Assembly (NCBI GenBank): GCA_023920165.1
Contig: CP089279.1
Coordinates: forward strand, 2,170,001-2,234,000
Source: Curvularia clavata
Taxonomy: Eukaryota
Length of the DNA stretch: 64,000 bases
Reading direction: 5' to 3'
The translations under genes and the position numbers were made by a program. Each line of letters opens with the position of its first letter. The first letter of the stretch is position 1. Under the pieces are notes generated by a model. It saw only the letters and a list, made by a program, of their open reading frames with translations. It did no database searches and was not told the origin of the DNA. Below are positions 1 to 21,777 of this stretch, one piece after another.

Positions 1-541
1 ACGGATAAGTTGTGTTAAGCTACATCGTGATATCGCTAGATAATATTCTGCTAGGGATCATATGATCGATTATGACGTGCTGCGATTCTGCGATTCTGGG
101 GGCCATGGCGAGTTTGTATGCCACAGGTAGTAGGTTGCGGGGAAGACTGTTGACATTTGGTTATCCGCAACGTATGATCGAGCCGCAGTATTGGCGCGAA
201 TTTCCTCACAGGCCAATAATCTTCGCAAAGCCATCGCTGCATCTCAAAGACGTCCCTGGTAGCAGGGCTTGAACCACCGATCATATGGTCGTCAAACGGC
301 ATATGTAGGTGCAGTTGTTATCGAACTGTATTTAGGCAGTGGCTCAGCCTTGGAATCCGTGACTCGATGGATGCGCTGAACGTTGCAGCCCAGCCGCACG
401 CCTATCAGGGTATACAGCTTCACTACCCCTCTGCTACGGAACAGCCGATCCTTTGATATCGACACACAAAATACTTGACTGAATGACAACGTGATCTAAC
501 ACAATAGTGTAAACCTGTCATCCAGACGACGGTGTGGAGAC

Positions 542-3295
542 ATGTCTGGAGACCCACGACCCCACCAGCAAAGCATCAGTCATGTCTCTGGGCAACAAGG
601 CTCCCGAGTGTATGTAGGGACCTTTAGCAACTGCCATTTGGGCAACAATGATGAACCCCAAAGTAAATTCACCAAGCCCTTACCGTATCTCTCAATCTTG
701 AGAATCTGCAGCTGATGCGATCGCCTTTCAGAAGCGCCAGACCAAGCGGCCGTCGCGTGTCGCAACGCCCTCTTCCTCACCGATCCCTACGTCGACCGCG
801 AGAGCGTGATCAGCGCAAAAGGCAAAAGAGTCGCGGGTACGTGTGAGTGGATCACACAGAACGAGAGCTACCGCGCCTGGTCGAACAGCGATAGCGACAG
901 AGATGGCATTGGAGATACGCGCCTACTGTGGATCTCCGGCGGGCCCGGCAAGGGCAAGACAATGATGTCTGTCTTCCTGACGGAAGAGCTAGAGAGACAC
1001 ATAGAACATACAGACAACGCAGACCTAGTCTTCTTCTTCTGCAGCGCTCAGGACGAGAAGCGCAACACAAGTATTGCTATACTACGCGGGCTAGTACACC
1101 AGATTATTGTTAAGCGCCAGCAGTTAGTCCACCACGCGCTGCCGTACTTTGAGACGCCTGAGAGGACGCAGCAGACGCTGTCATCTCTAGAGACACTATG
1201 GATTATCTTCAGTAAGCTTATCGCTAGCGCCGAGCTAGGCACTGTATTCTGCGTACTTGACGGACTCGACGAGTGCGAGGATAGCACGCTAAGAGTACTG
1301 TTGCCTAGACTTGTAGACCTACTTGCAGATAGAACGCCATCGCCAAAGAATAGTGCGTTTAAGCTGGCGATTGTTAGCAGAGACCTGCCTGGCCTGCGAG
1401 GCTGCACGACGAGGGTGAAACTCGATCCTGATAATGACGAGAAAGTAGCCGGTGACATTGAGCTGTTCGTGTCCACCCGAGTAGGAGAGCTATCGACCAT
1501 CGAAGGGTTTAGCGAGAACTTTCGAGCATCAGTGCAGACAGCTCTCCTCCAACGCGCCGAGGGAACGTTCCTATGGGTGGGCTTTGCAATGTATGAGCTG
1601 TCGCAGAAACAGACGTGCGTTGAGATCTTAGAGGCGCTCAAAGAACTACCAAGCGGTCTTCCGGCCATTTATAGCCGCATGCTGCTGCAGATCCCAGCTA
1701 GGCAGAGAGAACTGAGCCAGGCGATCTTGCGGTGGGTGACTATGGCTGCCCGCCCTCTGCAGCTGCGAGAGCTGGCAGCAGCAGTAGGCGTGCAGGCTAC
1801 ATCACCTCAAATAACAGTGGATCAAGCAGTCCGCGACGCTATTGCGCTTTGCGGGCCATTGCTCAAAGTGCAAGAGAAAGAAGTTAGCCTTATCCACCAA
1901 TCGGTGCGGGACTATCTGCTACGCAAAGAGCGTGATAGCGATGCCGTGCTAGAGGCCTTTCGACTTATAGTAGAGCCTTCGCATCTTGAGCTTGCACAGA
2001 GATGCCTTAGCTGCATTGCCCAGAGTGGATTTCAGCAAAGAGTGATTTACCTAGACGCTGAGCTGGACCCTCAAGAATCTCCTTTACTGCGATATGCTAC
2101 GATCTACTGGCCCGAGCACGCAAGAAGCGCCTCTTCACTCGCAACAAAGCTCTTTGATCCTTATGGGCTATTTTTGCAAAAGAAGTCTTTTCTGCGATAT
2201 TACTGGTGGCAGGCCTATTGGAAAGAAATAATGGGATACGAAGATCAGCCTATACCTCTGCTACATATAGCGTGTACCTTGAATATTATACCGTGGGTAG
2301 AAGCAGTTCTAGAAAAGAGAAGATGGAGCCTTAGATACCGCCGGTGGGTAAACAAGAAGGATTCTAGAAGAATAACAGCACTGCATTATGCAGCTCGGGA
2401 AGGGCACGAGGCGGTAGCGCTACTGCTAGTAGACAGAGGAGCGGACCTCAAGGCGAAAGATGAGAAGGGGGGGACGCCGCTACACTCGGCAGCTTCATCG
2501 TGGAAAGAGAACAAGGCGGTAGTACAGCTACTAGTAGATAGAGGAGCGGACATTAAGGCGACGGATAATAATGGAAAGACGCCGCTACACTGGGCAGCTT
2601 GGGTAGAAAACGAGGTGGTAGTACAGCTGCTAGTAGACAGAGGAGCGGACCTCAAGGCGAAGGAAGAGAATGGGATGACGCCGCTACACTCTGCAGCTTC
2701 ATCGTGGGAAGAGAATGAGGCGGTGGTACGGCTGCTAGTAGACAGAGGAGCGGATATTAAGGCGACGGATAATTATGGGATGACGCCGCTACACTCGGCA
2801 GCTTGGGTAGAGAACGAGGTGGTAGTACAGCTGCTAGTAGACCTTGGAGCGGACCTCAAGGCGACGGATACTTATGGTATGACGCCGCTACACTGGGCAG
2901 CTAGGGCAGGGAACGAGGTGGTAGTGAAGCTGCTAGTAGACAGAGGAGCGGACCTTAAGGCGAAAGATAAGGATGGGGTGACGCCGCTACACTCAGCAGC
3001 TTCATCGTGGAAAGAGAACAAGACGGTAGTACAGCTACTAGTAGATCTTGGAGCGGATATTAAGGCGAAGGACGAGAATAGAGAGACGCCGCTACACTCA
3101 GCAGCTAGAGTAGGGAACGAGATGGTAGTGAAGCTGCTAGTAGACCTCAAGGCGGACCTCAAGGCGAAAGATGAGGATGGAAAGACGCCGCTACACTCAG
3201 CAGCTTGGGAAGGGCACGAGACGGTAGTGCGGCTGCAGGTGGATAGAGAAGCAGACGTCAAGGCGAAGGATAGTAAAGGGAGAATGGCACCTTAG
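542..3295 (+). CDS. Fungal NLR: short N-terminal amyloid-like motif + NACHT + ankyrin repeats (exons 542-662, 732-3295)
   Basis: Walker A GGPGKGKT, Walker B VLDGLDEC, GTCEWI, AEGTFLW and HQSVRDYL motifs; ~9 ankyrin repeats (TPLHxAA...LLVDRGAD). A GT..CTGAT..CAG intron at 663-731 joins ATG542 in frame to LFLTDPYVDRES. Confidence 0.9.
2350..3290 (+). repeat. Internally conserved ankyrin tandem repeats (99- and 105-nt units)
   Basis: Near-identical units ACGCCGCTACACT...GCTAGTAGACAGAGGAGCGGAC...AAGGCGA repeated ~9 times. Confidence 0.9.
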
Positions 3296-3746
3296 CGAAT
3301 GCTTTCCAACAAAATCACGACGTAACTAGTGTGACGAAACTGCCTGCAGTCGCAGTGGTACAGGCGTCTTTACTACTATACTCTATAGTGTACATTACTG
3401 TGTGACTACGTTTACATATAGCTAACATTGTTATAACTGGATTTGGATATTAGTGAGCTTTCGGCTTTTTAGAACGTTGGTAGTGTCGTCGTAGTAGCTA
3501 CTCCTAATAAGGATAAAGCTACGCCAAGCGAAGACCCCCCTGTAGGCTGAGGGACTCGTGTAATACGTGGACCGGAAGCCAATTGTGGGAGCGAGTGTAC
3601 AGTATGTTTGAGATCACGAGACTGTAGACTGGCGACAAGAATAAAAGTCATAGACTCCAAAAGCACGAATGCAGTACTGACTACCAGGCATGTTAAATCT
3701 ACATCGTCTAATGATGACACAAAACCATGTTCCAGCTTCTAAACCT

Positions 3747-5900
3747 CTAAGCAGGCTTCTTGTCTCCATCCTTGCTAACTACCGCATCCTGCTTCGCCGG
3801 TGTCCCCGACCACCCCTTCACGAAGCTCCCAATATCAATATTCCTCGCCTTCTGCTGCATGACCGCCATTAGACTCTCCTGCTGCTTCTCATCCGCCTTC
3901 TTCCTCAATTCCTCTTCATTCTCGCCACCCTCCCCCTTCTCTCCCTCATTCTTCTTCCTCTCTTCCTCAACCTTCTTATTCTCTTTTCGCAAATCCGCTT
4001 CCGCACGCTCCACCTCCTCAATATCCACGTCTTCGAACCCAATCTTGCGCAGAATAGACCCCGTAATGAAGCGGTATTGGAGATGACCGTCTACGAGCTC
4101 CGAAACGTCGACGTTCTGGACACCGTAGACACCAACAACGGGTTGGAGACCAGCGACACCGAGTTGGACGGAAGAGGTACGGTATAGGAAACCGAGGATG
4201 TAGTCGTTCTTGGAAAAGACGTTCACGCAGCGTCCACTGACTACCGAGCGGACGCGGCGCCAGTCCTCGGCGTCTGAAGGGCAAGGGGCGCCTACAAGCA
4301 CGACGTTTTCAACGAGGCCAAAAGCTTTCCGGTCGGCGAGCTTTTGCAAGCAAGTGAAAATGAGGCGGGCGCCGAGAGAGTAGCCTACCAGTGTGACTGG
4401 TCGCTCGCCCTGAACTCTGTTAATGAGAGCGTCGGCGAGAACTTCACCAGCTTTCTCGGATCTGTATTTGGCTACAGAGAAGGGGTTATCCAGCATAGTG
4501 GCGATTTTGAGTAGTCCAAGAGGCCACATTGCAGCCGCCATTGCAGCAAAGACGGTTTGCTCAATGATCTTTTTCTTAGCATAGCCCCATGCTGCACTTG
4601 TGACGAATGTTTCAAGACTGTGCCCGAGCTTGAGAAGTGCTTCGAGCTCCCATCGTAACGCAAAGCCTTCTGTCCCCTTGCTGATGTACCGCCATGGTCG
4701 ACTGACCTCCTCGGGCTCTCGTAGCCAACCGGAAACAGCAATTGCTACCCGGAGACGCCGAGATTCGTTGTCTTGCTTCCTCGGATCCTGCGTGAGGTGG
4801 ATTGGAATGAAGCCAAAGTCCTCGACCTGTCGTGCGTATTCGTCCATGGCCTTTCCCGTCATCTTTGCTCCATATGCACCAAAAAGACCGCCCACGAGAA
4901 CTGAAGACCCAGCAAGCGTGCCGAGGTAGCCTGCCGCCGCGGTAGCTCCAAGACCAACACCGCCCATTACACTTCCGACACCTGCGGCAAGAAGAGGAGC
5001 AGCGAGTCCACCTGTTACGCCGATAAGCGCTGCTCCGGCGACGCCAGCCAGCCCAACTTTCCATCTGCGAGCCGTTTGGGAAGCCTCTGCCGCTTTCTTG
5101 GTCTCTTCATCAGCATTGAGCTGCTGGGATGCCGCCTCCAGTAATCCTTGAGCAACCGTCTCCTCATCTTTCTTCAGGACGTCTCTACCCAGTCCGAGAC
5201 TACTTGTGAGATAGAGAATCAGAACACGAGAATGTGCCGAGTAGTGTTCCAGGCTCAGCACAATGAGCAAAAGCGAGTGCAATATAAGCGCACGTTTGCT
5301 TTCTTCCAGCTGAGTAAGGGCAGTCGGAACAGGTGGATACAGGTCCTTGAACATTTTGTCCTCGTCTTCTTCCTTGTCGTCAAGCTTCTCGATACTCATC
5401 ATGCCGGTCTCGGACTTATTGGCGATCTCTTTGGCCTGCTTGCTCTCCACTTCCTGAGCCTGCTTGTTCGCCTTGTCTTTGGAGTTGATCACCTCGCCAA
5501 CTCTGCTGACAACCTGGCCTCTCCAATCATCGAAATACCTCAACATCTCCCTCTTTAGCTCTTGTAATTCTGGCTTTGCTAGCTCTCCTCTAGCTTCCTG
5601 TTCGCGCTTCTGTCTTTCTTTCTTGATCTTTTCTTCTTTCTCAACGTCGACATCGTCGAGATTGGAGGGCGCATCTCTCAAAGCTTCTTCTTCTGTCTTT
5701 GCTGTCTTTGCGTCGATTGGAAACTCCTCGGCGGTAAATGTGTAAACTAATGACTGTCGCATCGAAGCTGTGATGGTAGCTATCAAGAAGGTCAACTCGG
5801 CGCACTGGTCCGCATCGAGAAGCGTTGAGAGTGACGTTTCGTCCTTGTCTTCGGACTTGGAATGTCCTAGTGAGGACAGTTTGGACGCCCAACCTGCCAT
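3747..5900 (-). CDS. DUF726 / TMCO4-like membrane-associated alpha/beta-hydrolase
   Basis: 717-aa ORF; GLAGVAGAALIGVTGGLAAP, RPVTLVGYSLGAR nucleophile-elbow motif, VDGHLQY. Confidence 0.9.
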   Translation of the reverse strand: MAGWASKLSSLGHSKSEDKDETSLSTLLDADQCAELTFLIATITASMRQSLVYTFTAEEFPIDAKTAKTEEEALRDAPSNLDDVDVEKEEKIKKERQKREQEARGELAKPELQELKREMLRYFDDWRGQVVSRVGEVINSKDKANKQAQEVESKQAKEIANKSETGMMSIEKLDDKEEDEDKMFKDLYPPVPTALTQLEESKRALILHSLLLIVLSLEHYSAHSRVLILYLTSSLGLGRDVLKKDEETVAQGLLEAASQQLNADEETKKAAEASQTARRWKVGLAGVAGAALIGVTGGLAAPLLAAGVGSVMGGVGLGATAAAGYLGTLAGSSVLVGGLFGAYGAKMTGKAMDEYARQVEDFGFIPIHLTQDPRKQDNESRRLRVAIAVSGWLREPEEVSRPWRYISKGTEGFALRWELEALLKLGHSLETFVTSAAWGYAKKKIIEQTVFAAMAAAMWPLGLLKIATMLDNPFSVAKYRSEKAGEVLADALINRVQGERPVTLVGYSLGARLIFTCLQKLADRKAFGLVENVVLVGAPCPSDAEDWRRVRSVVSGRCVNVFSKNDYILGFLYRTSSVQLGVAGLQPVVGVYGVQNVDVSELVDGHLQYRFITGSILRKIGFEDVDIEEVERAEADLRKENKKVEEERKKNEGEKGEGGENEEELRKKADEKQQESLMAVMQQKARNIDIGSFVKGWSGTPAKQDAVVSKDGDKKPA

Positions 5901-6100
5901 TTTTGCAGACCTGTGTTAACTCTCAAGTTTGATGTGGCCAGGTTGTGTAGGATCTACACTGCGGCTGGTGGGGGGCCAGGTACCAGTATACTGCTGTTTT
6001 AGGTATGACGTCAAGCAGGGGTGTGGGGCGATATCCCAATACATCACCAGCGTCATGCAAAGGGAACCACTCTGCGACTGTATAGTACCACAAAAAAACT

Positions 6101-6595
6101 ATGTTTATGAATAATCTCGCCTCTAACCAGAGGGAATCTCCAAGTGCCCGCCCCAACGCTAAACCCCATCTTGACACGCCAACGCGAGCGCGGTTCTTTG
6201 AAGCCATTGATCGCCGCGGCACTGCAACCAAGCGTAGCACCTTTAAAGACTTCAACATCGCACCGTCCACGGGCTATCGCCTGCTGCATGAGCGTGAAAC
6301 TTACGGTACCACTGCTGATCGTCGATCTCAACTTCGTCAATTGAAGAAAATAGAGACGGGAAAAGGTTCTGGTCGAAGACCAAAGATCTCAGATGAACAG
6401 CTACAACGACTTCTCAATGCCCCGAAGGAAGTCAGGGCACAACGACTCCAGGACCAGCTGGTGCAAGCGGGTATCACGCATGTTTCCCAAGAGACAGCTC
6501 GCCGCGCTCTCCGCGATAGGAAGGATGCATTGTACCGAGCCTCGAAGGCTCAAGCCATTACGATGTCTCCTCATCCTAGCGCATACACGTCATAG
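6101..6595 (+). mobile_element. Truncated Tc1/mariner-like transposase (N-terminal HTH DNA-binding part only)
   Basis: HLDTPTRARF...IAPSTGYRLL...SGRRPKISDEQL (GRPR-like linker)...VSQETARRAL; ends before any DDE domain; no TIR pair found. Confidence 0.6.
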
Positions 6596-18968: not shown

Positions 18969-21777
18969 ATGCCACGTAAAGCGACTAAAGACACCAACGC
19001 CTCTGCTCCTAGGAGCTCATCTAAGCGCCCTGCGCAGGAAGTCGCGCAGACACAAACAAAGAGAGCAAGGGCGACTCCAAGAAAGTCTTACGTGGAACCG
19101 GACACAGATACGGACGATGTAGAAGATGAGATATTGAGAAAGCCCTCTCCAGGGGAAGAGAAGGACGATGGTGCAGCATCCGACTACGAGGAACCCGGCA
19201 ACAAAGCACCATCGACGGAGTCTGAGCCTGACGAGACCGCTAGTGATGATGATGATGATGATGGTCGCAAGAAACGCAAACCAAGAGGCCGCTCTGCTAA
19301 GAGCCTTCCCATTCATAAGAAAAAGTCTGGCGAGAAAGAGCTATGGAAGCCTGGAGCCAAGCTCGAGCCGGGGATGCAAGTGATCATCAAGAAACCGAAG
19401 GCCCGGGACGCAGGGGACACACCATACCTGGACCACACAATTCATCCGAATACTCTACTCTTTCTGAAAGAATTGGCAGCCAACAATGATCGAAGTTGGC
19501 TCAAGTGTGAGTGTCTTCCCAACATATGTCATGGAGAGAACCGTGGGACCATAGTCGACTAACCATCACGTAGTACACGACCCAGACTTTCGAGTCGCAT
19601 TTCAGGACTTTACGACATTTGCAGAAAAAGTGTCAGAGAAGGTGATTGAAGCAGACGAGACTATCCCGGAGTTACCGGTTAAAGACGTAGTAAGTGCACA
19701 AAATCAGCGTCTTCAATCTGCATATTAACATGCATAGATTTACCGGATATATAGAGGTAAGGACATACTCATATAAAAATTACACGGTGACATTGACACG
19801 CGAAGATATCCGCTTTTCCAAGGACCCGACGCCGTACAAGGTGAGCAGATTTGTATTGCACGAGTGGGATGAGCTTCGTCGGGTTTCCTCGTTTTCGGAT
19901 AAGATACCCCTCGAGTTCTTCTGTGCGCCTTCACGAGAAAAGTGGGATGTACACTGACAGGTGCAGACTTACTTCTCTGCGGCGTGGTCAAGAACTGGAC
20001 GCAAAGGACCCTATGCGCATTATTATGTGCAGGTCCAGCCAAACGGCGGAAGTTTTGTGGGTATGTTGACATTTCTTGTTTCATTGCTCAAGGAAAGTGT
20101 CTAGCTATGAGGTGTCGTGAAACTTGTTCCGGAGCACGGCTTGACCTCGTGGCTATCCTAATCCTTCCCCTGCCCAAGCATGCATATTGTCTGCATGAAT
20201 TCCCGATGGCCATGCGCATATGACCATAATAAACTGGATTTCCATGGGCCGCTTTCTCGCTTGGCCGAGTCTCGCAACCGATACCACATGCTGTAGTGCC
20301 ACAACTGCGTTAGCACCGTCGGACACGGATAAAGCCGGTCGGCGGCTGCCGCACTGAATGCAGCGATATGGACCAGCAACGACAGTCCTGTTGTATCTGT
20401 AGTACGCGGAGGTTTCGCACCGCGCCATTGGGTAGCATTTCCAGTTACACGCGTGCAACATGAAGACAAATGTTGTCGAGCAGTTCGGTCTTCTACGACT
20501 GTCAATGGTGTAACATCTCGGATAGCCTCGAGCGGTTACGGGCCGCACGGTAATGCTGGGTTCGGTGCGCTTCGGCGCGGAAGAAGTCTGCCTGGGTGCT
20601 CATTGTTCCGCATCTCAACCTGGCAGCTATAGTTGATTTCATGACATGGACACGTATGCTAACTTTTCAAGGTGGCGGATATTGGCAGCCAGACGCAGCG
20701 GCTCTTGCTAAGCTTCGACACGATATTGACCGAAAACCACATAAGATCAAATCTGTCCTTAGGAAGGACAGCATCAGAAAAGAGTTTCTGGGAGGCGTGC
20801 CAGACGACGATAGAAAAGCGGTGAAGGCCTTCACGAGCTCATCGATGAACCAGTCGAACGCATTGAAGCGTAACCCCAAAGTAAGTGAGGAACAAATTTA
20901 TGACATTTCGTCCAGAACGGGCAAGGCTTCCAAGGGGGGGATTAAAGTCAGCACCGCGCCTGACGTGTCGGCATTACCATGATTGGCCGACCCTAAGGAC
21001 GGCTAGCAAATACGTTGGCGTTGTCAATAGTTGAGATGGGTGAGATTACTTGGGCATGCGCCATGGCCAGCACAAATAAGCTTTGAGAGATTGTCTCTGA
21101 GCTTCTGCGTTGCAACGCCGTGCCGCAAAGGCGATTAGAGTTTTGAGTCTCCACACAGCCCAAGCAGGCGAGCTGAAGGTTTAGGGTAACAGGTCAGCTA
21201 GTCGGGTGTGCCGCTGTCGACACTTGTTGATGATCAGCGATGAAATGGACGGCGTGCAGTCGGGCTATGCCTGATCAAATTAGCTGACAGGGAGTTCAGG
21301 GATACGATCATGATCACCAAGACATTGAGCTGCTGCGACTCCGCAACTTTACGATTGGACGAAAGATTGAGGACAAGGAGATTGTCGGCTCAGGCGGGTT
21401 GGGTCGAGTCGCGGAGCTCGTGCTCGCAATGGCGCCTTTTGTAAGTTTCTGACTTTGTGTCTGGAGAGTGGACGAGACGAGGCGGTGATTGGGCAGCAGC
21501 TTGAGCAGCTTGTTAGGAACAGCCCTGTAGGGTGCAAGCGACGGTGCTCGCATAGTGCCGGCCAGTCACCCGCGCACCGTAACGAGCAGTCCCTTGACGA
21601 AAGGCATTGGACACGGGAGGTGGCGGCTAACAGTTTGTGCAGATTACGTATCTCAATAGCGTCGTGATGCCCGACGAGGACACGTCAGGCTCGAGCGATG
21701 AGGACAGCGGCGAGGGCGAGGGCGAGAGCGAGGGCGAGGGCGGGGACGACAGCGATGCACAGGATGACGAGGGTTGA
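18969..21777 (+). CDS. DUF2461 (CHP02453) family protein; exons 18969-19506, 19574-19689, 19738-19756, 19806-19840, 19967-20060, 20672-20880, 21300-21440, 21643-21777
   Basis: Spliced translation is continuous and gives FLKELAANNDRSWL, IYRIYRDIRFSKDPTPYK, YYVQVQP...FVGGGYWQP, LKRNPKGYDHDHQDIELLRLRNF; all introns GT-AG with CTAAC/CTGAC-like branch points. Confidence 0.88.
20061..20671 (+). ncRNA. Candidate structured intronic RNA (DUF2461 intron 5, 611 nt)
   Basis: Many by-eye hairpins, including the 12-bp stem 20102-20113/20144-20155 and a C(UUCG)G tetraloop hairpin at 20567-20578; complementarity to intron 6. Confidence 0.5.
20881..21299 (+). ncRNA. Candidate structured intronic RNA (DUF2461 intron 6, 419 nt)
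   Basis: Hairpins gtcggc/gccgac, agctga/tcagct and tgatcag/ctgatca; ~32-bp complementarity to intron 5. Confidence 0.45.

What the first reader, a model, noticed from the sequence alone, without database searches (positions are those of the whole stretch)
542..662. NLR first exon encodes a HET-s-like amyloid signalling motif
Seen: an exon missed by the ORF track encodes MSGDPRPHQQSISHVSGQQGSRVYVGTFSNCHLGNNDEPQ directly upstream of the NACHT domain, with no folded effector domain. QSISHVSGQQGSRVYVGT aligns without gaps to HET-s repeat R2 (NSVETVVGKGESRVLIGN, recalled from memory): S, V, G, SRV and G are identical, plus two I/V substitutions. Known: NLRs such as NWD2 carry one N-terminal amyloid repeat that templates a two-repeat prion-forming domain in an adjacent HeLo-type cell-death effector. 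Inference: this is a prion-like signalling NLR with the motif on its own exon; the effector would lie left of the window or elsewhere.
Basis: partly seen in the sequence, partly recalled or inferred. Interest (0 to 1): 0.72.

Follow-up and report, generated by a model that had tools for sequence, protein, structure and literature searches.

The report
Orphan fungal receptor with amyloid tag
A fungal immune-receptor gene starts with a short exon encoding a known type of prion-like signalling peptide, and the cell-death protein it most plausibly triggers lies far away on the same chromosome instead of next door.

Summary
Observation confirmed. Exon 542-662 and the 69-nt GT..AG intron 663-731 are real: the 662->732 joint stands in contigs of 3 of 4 runs laid from close relatives. 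The deposited gene model (Curvularia clavata, by a source's name) misses the exon. The peptide 563-625 is a single r0 copy of the published HET-s-related amyloid motif, on a NACHT-ankyrin NLR. Its subfamily is HRAM2 (Q at position 3), not canonical HET-s (N3). Four close homologues carry r0s listed verbatim in Daskalov 2015.

No effector was found within 40 kb to the left or in the window; a transposase remnant sits where the effector normally lies. The genome holds two intact HeLo-like proteins with two HRAM2 repeats, each beside its own NLR. The one 1.28 Mb away on the same contig matches this r0 best (9/21; 0 of 500 shuffles), better than its own neighbour's r0 does. Four intact HRAM2 NLRs face two effectors, which suggests signalling in trans; this is inferred, not shown. 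Amyloid formation was not testable. New member of a known kind; the scan noted the same kind on other DNA (e1-7705010).

The parts
35..196 (-). Remnant of the 5' end of a DDE_3 (IS630/Tc1-like) transposase, head-to-head with the NLR, in the place where HRAM2 effectors usually sit
   Evidence: tblastn of the transposase frame beside the C7 paralogue: 48% over 54 columns, E 1e-6, one stop inside; DDE_3 by Pfam; DNA 49-240 is 69% like C7:2829576-2829750
542..662 (+). Exon 1 (40 codons plus 1 base), first in-frame ATG; missed by the deposited model, which starts at 648
563..625 (+). HRAM2-type r0 motif HQQSISHVSGQQGSRVYVGTF (Q3, I5, V8, G10, R15, V16, Y17, V18, G19, F21)
   Evidence: numbering from PMC4518210 text; scores
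626..643 (+). Short conserved tail after the motif (SNCHLG; F-x-N-C-x-hydrophobic-G in this subtype, a G-x-V-x-F-like strand in others)
   Evidence: alignments A1 and A3
663..731 (+). Intron, 69 nt, GT..AG, branch-like CTGAT at 712-716
   Evidence: joint in 3 of 4 runs; same place in paralogues
732..3295 (+). Exon 2: NACHT (NPHP3_N 836-1381; Walker A GGPGKGKT 938-961; Walker B VLDGLDE from 1253), winged helix (1697-1945), ankyrin array, stop
   Evidence: Pfam; sequence
2390..3272 (+). Nine ankyrin repeats of 33 or 35 aa, 76-81% alike at DNA level; presumed ligand sensor

Best explanation
An intact, spliced NACHT-ankyrin NLR carries one HRAM2 r0 motif and no linked effector. Shown: gene structure, motif class, lack of a neighbouring effector, and two intact two-repeat HeLo-like effectors elsewhere. 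Inferred from the NWD2/HET-S and FNT1/HELLF precedents: the ankyrin repeats bind a non-self ligand, the NACHT oligomerises, and the clustered r0 peptides stack into a beta-solenoid seed. The seed templates the r1/r2 domain of a HeLo-like protein, which refolds and permeabilises the membrane. Inferred here: the target is most likely E1 (G000:C6:887602-888540, minus strand, 295 aa, 1.28 Mb away), acting in trans, so E1 would receive input from its own neighbour NLR and from unlinked ones. Odds: motif is an HRAM2 r0, about 0.92; it still signals, about 0.75; E1 is a target, about 0.5.
For: Motif class: four homologues (P0039, P0044, P0051/P0052, P0053; N-termini) carry r0s printed verbatim in the r0 column of Daskalov's supplement. 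Table 1 with the two Curvularia lunata rows fixes this effector family as HRAM2. A profile of 24 r0s found 62 proteins among 1.84 billion, including 4 effector C-termini with two repeats. Effector: PF17111 at the N-terminus and two repeats at the C-terminus. The profile of E1's two-repeat tail hits one PDB sequence, 6EKA chain A, the HELLF prion (E 0.0039). Its AlphaFold model (pLDDT 84.8) aligns with Z>=2 to only 2 of 48,161 chains: HELLF (Z 5.0, rmsd 4.9, 50 aligned) and HET-s (Z 3.7, rmsd 5.2, 55 aligned). Partner choice: of 8 amyloid-type effector tails tested in this genome, the r0 matches E1 best (BLOSUM62 38, 9/21, 0 of 500 shuffles); E2 scores 18 (10 of 500); the HRAM3 tails 9 and 16, the PP-type tails 5-22. 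E1's own neighbour scores 23 (8 of 500). Still selected: exon 1 is 37/40 identical to B. sorokiniana P0007 while the NACHT is 250/318 (Fisher p 0.036), and it is spliced in relatives.
Against: No direct evidence of amyloid formation or of seeding. An HMM built from 44 effector repeats alone does not detect the window r0 at E<=10 (nor E1's own neighbour r0). The ungapped matrix gives it -7.3, 9th of 322,473 21-mers, behind one non-HRAM 21-mer; the other intact orphan (C3) scores 18.0. So similarity ranks do not pin the pairing: E1's neighbour r0 scores higher on E2 (32) than on E1. The fold Z-scores are below 8, which the tool calls common, and Foldseek found nothing at E<=0.001. Near-identical backbones need not cross-seed (HELLF and HET-s; passages of 10.1101/2020.07.06.188508). 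Two of six clade members in the genome are broken, so decay happens. The higher conservation of exon 1 extends into the untranslated leader in X1 (5 differences in 363 bases against 94 in 1,654), so it may reflect fast change of exon 2 rather than selection on the motif. No relative with this r0 subtype was seen in genomic context.
Confidence: 0.52

Rival explanations
1. The motif signals, but to another partner: E2 (C8:258645-259595), both effectors without preference, or a subtype-specific effector that my searches missed.
For: The r0 belongs to a distinct subtype (QQGS-x-YVGTF-x-NC) shared with the C7 paralogue and P0007, P0011, P0032. E2 is matched above most shuffles (10 of 500). The genome search scores only the best candidates and could be run only by family or single protein. 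PMC9815663 (passages) reports single-copy HRAM on PNP_UDP effectors at unlinked loci.
Against: The 40-aa peptide finds only itself and the C7 paralogue. Loci of 16 PF17111, 12 PF14479, 13 PF01048 and 12 PF17107 matches, scanned with the r0 profile, gave two-repeat HRAM2 tails only in E1 and E2.
Confidence: 0.2
2. A relic: the NLR was copied away from its effector, next to a transposon, and the motif no longer has a target; the gene is on the way to loss.
For: Transposase remnant at 35-196 and an open DDE_3 frame beside the C7 copy. The C7 copy stops after about 315 codons and runs into a minisatellite; the C3:4359k copy has 3 stops and a decayed motif. RIP-like dinucleotide ratios over the ankyrin array (thresholds recalled). 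The last ankyrin repeat is cut short.
Against: Open 894-aa frame with Walker A and B; spliced transcripts in three studies; 37/40 identity of exon 1 across two genera; an intact compatible effector in the same genome.
Confidence: 0.14
3. The r0 works between NLRs or as a modulator: it co-stacks with r0s of other HRAM2 NLRs (sensor-helper), or caps and dampens E1 seeding instead of triggering it.
For: Four intact r0-bearing NLRs against two effectors; the orphan r0s differ from the linked ones.
Against: No tool result points to inhibition; the r0 keeps the core pattern and the hydrophobic 17/21 pairing described for HRAMs.
Confidence: 0.09
4. The motif is a canonical HET-s (HRAM1) repeat that templates a HET-S orthologue.
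For: 7 of 21 identities to HET-s R2, including S-R-V and G10 (by eye).
Against: Q, not N, at position 3; no Pfam match of the peptide at E<=10; PF11558 has one match, below the cut-off and in an unrelated region; the two HeLo proteins with HRAM tails are of the H3 type and have their own NACHT-WD neighbours.
Confidence: 0.03

Closest known systems
HRAM2 NLR / HeLo-like pairs of Cochliobolus, Curvularia lunata, Corynespora, Karstenula, Aspergillus fumigatus (Daskalov, Dyrka, Saupe 2015, PMC4518210)
   Same: 21-residue r0 with Q3 at the NLR N-terminus; same NLR clade (four homologues' r0s are verbatim in its supplement); same effector family (P0177 and P0178 are rows of it).
   Different: No adjacent effector; r0 subtype with R15-V16-Y17 and F21 plus an NC tail, not seen in the r0 column (all 5 parts read by eye).
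NWD2/HET-S (HRAM1) of Podospora anserina
   Same: One r0 on a NACHT NLR, two repeats on a HeLo-related executor; core pattern and G19.
   Different: Ankyrin instead of WD40 sensor; HeLo-like (PF17111) instead of HeLo; Q3 instead of N3; genes unlinked; nothing tested at the bench here.
FNT1/HELLF (HRAM5), PDB 6EKA
   Same: HeLo-like executor; the only PDB sequence hit by the effector-tail profile and the best fold match.
   Different: HRAM5 hallmarks QxFG and QG are absent from this r0 and from E1.
Unlinked HRAM NLRs, motif NLR12 (Wojciechowski et al. 2022, PMC9815663)
   Same: More NLR-side than effector-side motifs, not co-localised; the authors speculate that many NLRs control one effector.
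   Different: NLR12 resembles HRAM3 and pairs with single motifs on PNP_UDP enzymes; here it is HRAM2 with two-repeat HeLo-like effectors.

Membership tests
HRAM motif superfamily (r0) | Hydrophobic residues at 5, 8, 10, 16, 18 and G at 19 | tested here: met
   I5, V8, V16, V18, G19; position 10 is G, as in HET-s R2
HRAM motif superfamily (r0) | Positive residue preferred at 15; r0 poor in D/E/K, rich in S/H | tested here: met
   R15; no D, E or K, four S and two H in 21 residues
HRAM motif superfamily (r0) | Single copy at the very N-terminus of an NLR with no folded effector domain | tested here: met
   residues 8-28 of an 894-aa NACHT-ankyrin protein; splice confirmed
HRAM motif superfamily (r0) | A HeLo-related protein with two matching repeats exists in the genome | tested here: met
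   E1 and E2
HRAM motif superfamily (r0) | Beta-solenoid fold of the effector repeats | tested here: inconclusive
   model with two matching rungs; HELLF Z 5.0 and HET-s Z 3.7 are the only chains with Z>=2, but both are under 8; sequence hit to 6EKA E 0.0039
HRAM motif superfamily (r0) | Forms amyloid and templates the effector | not testable with these tools
   needs fibril and in vivo seeding assays
HRAM2 subfamily | Q at position 3, without Q at 16 or 18 and without QxFG | tested here: met
   Q3, I5, V16, V18
HRAM2 subfamily | Clusters with the published HRAM2 set by the authors' distance method or profiles | not tested
   the published motif set and HMM files could not be loaded; assignment rests on the text rule, Table 1 and verbatim r0s of homologues
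HRAM1 / HET-s canonical | N at position 3; PF11558 effector | tested here: not met
   Q3; PF11558 best match 16.1 bits against a cut-off of 32.2
NWD2/het-S-type two-gene cluster | Effector gene adjacent to the NLR | tested here: not met
   none in C6:2130101-2170000 or in the window; E1 is 1.28 Mb away
Fungal NLR (NACHT-ANK) | NACHT with Walker A and B, winged helix, C-terminal repeat array | tested here: met
   PF05729, PF24883, PF22939, nine Ank stretches

The most novel reading that the evidence does not exclude
A fan-in amyloid network. Several unlinked NACHT-ankyrin sensors (this one and C3:3386.9k) plug into one shared HeLo-like executioner through an r0 motif on a self-contained first exon. 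The exon survives when the gene is moved beside a transposon and can be exchanged: P0003/P0014 have an equally close NACHT (254/323) but a different first-exon peptide (10/37). Amyloid wiring would then be rewired by exon swap, without gene linkage.
Probability: 0.35. Interest if true: 0.58.

Novelty: new member of a known kind. Interest (0 to 1): 0.33.

Why it matters
The motif class is known, so the peptide itself is ordinary. Its value is as a test case. Reviews propose that one effector could be activated by several NLRs (PMC5485727 section 6; PMC9815663 passages). In the passages I read this stands as a possibility or speculation, and my three completed searches (the library lacks most subscription papers) listed no bench study of HRAM2 seeding. 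This genome offers a complete small set (four intact HRAM2 NLRs, two HRAM2 effectors, two HRAM3 pairs as controls) to test trans activation and seeding specificity. It also shows that catalogues built on annotated proteins undercount these motifs: the deposited model drops the exon, and many of the 120 listed homologues begin inside the NACHT domain.

Tried and rejected
Complex prediction of the r0 with the E1 tail: no answer (score 0.01, alignments not used); not counted either way. Foldseek with the full effector model (P0179, pLDDT 81) and with the tail model: nothing at E<=0.001. phmmer of the peptide against PDB: 0 hits at E<=10. Pfam on the peptide and 23 relatives: no relevant family. 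Metagenome scan for the exon subtype: 79 pattern matches, none confirmed. The NACHT-start scan gave 39 loci, none with this subtype, so linkage of the subtype in other species is open. The SesA match 30 kb to the left (C6:2139.7k) was rejected as partner: it is an all-in-one SesA NLR with no HRAM score. The PF11558 match at C6:1571.6k lies in a transporter-like region, below cut-off. Three profile hits (P0121, P0148, P0167) are long repeat proteins and were rejected as false. The tree (44 rows, quick method only; careful search unfinished) places P0003/P0014 beside the window gene at support 88, unstarred, so the exon-swap reading is a lead; test_one_clade was not run. The deposited start at 648 with donor 685 was rejected: no 684->732 joint in any of the 4 runs, though contigs drop rare forms. 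Supplements of PMC9815663 were mostly unreachable (file 7 alone searched, no match) and may list this subtype; the PDF supplement of PMC4518210 was not read. No score against the published HRAM profiles or ArchCandy could be run.

Full report
The observation. Window 542-661 gives the 40 residues quoted. A GT at 663, a CTGAT at 712-716 and an AG at 730-731 join it in frame to a frame that Pfam reads as NACHT, winged helix and nine ankyrin stretches. The spliced product is 894 aa without a stop. Contigs of three of four runs laid from close relatives skip exactly 663-731; the fourth covers only 461-660 and parts of the repeats. The runs with the joint are not on record as RNA, but they also splice a paralogue, so RNA is the plain reading. 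The deposited protein of this gene (P0001, labelled Curvularia clavata) starts at 648 and lacks the motif, while B. sorokiniana P0007 is annotated with the exon. The start at 542 is the first in-frame ATG and is conserved, but translation was not observed.

What the peptide is. In the numbering of Daskalov et al. 2015 (PMC4518210; I read parts 1-3 of 5 of the text, passages with Tables 1-2, and all of supplementary file 2), 563-625 is a 21-residue motif with Q3, I5, V8, G10, R15, V16, V18 and G19. The paper gives N3 for HET-s-type motifs, Q3 for HRAM2 and H3 for HRAM3. Of 120 listed homologues, I chose 22 N-termini by eye for alignment A1; many others begin inside the NACHT. Four homologues (P0039, P0044, P0051/P0052, P0053) have r0s printed verbatim in the paper's table. 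A matrix that leaves out the window and its subtype still ranks the peptide first of 66,878 21-mers, with 0 of 20,000 shuffles reaching it. A profile search of 1.84 billion representatives gave 62 hits: mostly NLR N-termini or short gene calls that look like such first exons, four effector tails with two repeats, and three false repeat proteins.

The surroundings. The window is G000:C6:2170001-2234000. Forty kb to the left and the window itself show no HeLo-related gene or two-repeat motif. Head-to-head with the NLR, at 35-196, lies the broken 5' end of a DDE_3 transposase whose open relative sits in the same position beside the C7 paralogue. In linked pairs this is the effector's place: E1's ATG is 424 bases from its NLR's ATG, and 9 of 39 metagenome loci (9 of the 17 closest) show a HeLo-like gene head-to-head (7 with both repeats, 2 partial). 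I infer that this subtype lost its neighbour in a transposon-linked event; the order of events was not tested.

The genome's set. Six NACHT paralogues above 45% identity exist: the window gene, C3:3386.9k (intact, orphan), C6:889k (intact, beside E1), C8:260k (intact, behind E2), and two broken ones (C7:2829k, C3:4359k). E1 (C6:887602-888540) and E2 (C8:258645-259595) are intact PF17111 proteins ending in two repeats. E1's repeats are SGQDISNVITSADSKAFVGMP and INQRISNVRTEGGSTAHVGVF. Its family is the one Table 1 counts as HRAM2 for Curvularia lunata. A profile of the E1 tail hits one PDB sequence, 6EKA (E 0.0039). Its model has two matching rungs and aligns only to HELLF and HET-s among 48,161 chains, at modest Z (5.0 and 3.7).

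Which partner. Against eight effector tails in the genome, the window r0 matches E1 best (score 38, 9/21 to r2, 0 of 500 shuffles), above E2 (18) and the HRAM3 and PP-type tails (5-22). Against this reading: E1's own neighbour r0 scores higher on E2 than on E1; an effector-only HMM misses both that r0 and the window's; and the effector-only matrix favours the C3 orphan. Similarity therefore shows compatibility, not pairing. The HELLF preprint (10.1101/2020.07.06.188508, passages) shows that side chains set seeding barriers between subfamilies; specificity within HRAM2 is unknown to me.

Mechanism. Shown: gene, splice, motif class, absence of a linked effector, presence of unlinked ones. Taken from the NWD2/HET-S system (passages of PMC5485727 and PMC12881547): ligand binding, oligomerisation, r0 stacking, templating of r1/r2, membrane attack. 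Inferred: E1 as target in trans (0.52). Rivals: another or shared effector (0.20), relic (0.14), NLR-NLR or dampening role (0.09), canonical HET-s (0.03). Exon 1 is better conserved than the NACHT between genera (37/40 against 250/318, p 0.036), which argues against a relic, though the leader is also well conserved in one relative.

Novelty. HRAM2 r0 motifs on this NLR clade are published, and unlinked motif-bearing NLRs with the idea of many sensors per effector are in print as speculation (PMC9815663 passages; PMC5485727 section 6). PMC12258605 and PMC13449251 were seen as search listings only. The scan noted the same kind of gene in another genome (e1-7705010; not checked by me). So this is a new member of a known kind. 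It is not a member of the two-gene-cluster type, since adjacency was tested and not met. The boldest open reading is a fan-in network wired by an exchangeable first exon. It rests on the four-to-two count and on P0003/P0014, whose NACHT is as close but whose first exon differs, in an unfinished tree at support 88. Interest 0.33; 0.58 if the network reading holds.

Noticed in passing
G000:C3:3384431-3386899 (L046, L079, L080): A second intact orphan NACHT-ankyrin NLR with an HRAM2 r0 on its own first exon; no effector scored within 10 kb either side; its exon end appears spliced in runs X1, X4, X18.
   Followed up: partly
G000:C7:2824001-2830700 (L008): Closest paralogue by r0 subtype: stops after about 315 codons of exon 2 and runs into a minisatellite of several kb; an open DDE_3 transposase frame lies head-to-head upstream.
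   Followed up: partly
G000:C3:4358649-4359750 (L010): Broken paralogue with three stops and a decayed r0.
   Followed up: partly
G000:C7:2792400-2795400 and C3:470000-474700 (L148, L149): Two HeLo proteins with H3-type (HRAM3) double repeats, each head-to-head with a NACHT-WD40 NLR; the C3 NLR shows its r0.
   Followed up: partly
G000:C6:1290600-1295500 (L018, L081): HeLo-like gene very close to E1 in its helical part but ending in a single G-x-Q-V-V-N-N motif, head-to-head with a P-loop/TPR NLR that starts with the same motif: a PP-like pair, suggesting a motif swap on the effector side.
   Followed up: partly
L031 (C7:953k), L032 (C5:868k), L017 (C1:486k): HeLo and HeLo-like proteins ending in PP-like G-L/F-Q-I/L/T-G motifs (label from PMC9815663 passages and recall).
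   Followed up: no
G000:C6:2136400-2140100 (L134, L146): All-in-one SesA NLR 30 kb left of the window, with a G/N-rich linker that looks amyloid-like.
   Followed up: partly
P0003, P0014 (Bipolaris): NACHT as close to the window gene as P0007 is, but a different first-exon peptide (I-D-I-x-G-G-x-V-x-G-N-G-V-Q-I) of no family I could assign.
   Followed up: partly
window 2400-3600: RIP-like dinucleotide ratios over the ankyrin array and just behind it (TpA/ApT 1.7-2.3) although the frame stays open.
   Followed up: partly
window 6086-6595 (+): Short helix-turn-helix frame with weak Tc3 transposase similarity (below Pfam cut-offs), probably another transposon remnant.
   Followed up: no
window 3747-5915 (-) and onward: Right-hand neighbours look like housekeeping genes (DUF726 hydrolase-like by Pfam; further frames resembling isocitrate lyase and citrate synthase by eye), so the NLR is an insertion in ordinary DNA.
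   Followed up: no
window 20996-21193 (-): Second-best 21-mer for the r0 matrix (16.0 against 34.7), in a short frame with no NLR nearby; probably chance.
   Followed up: no
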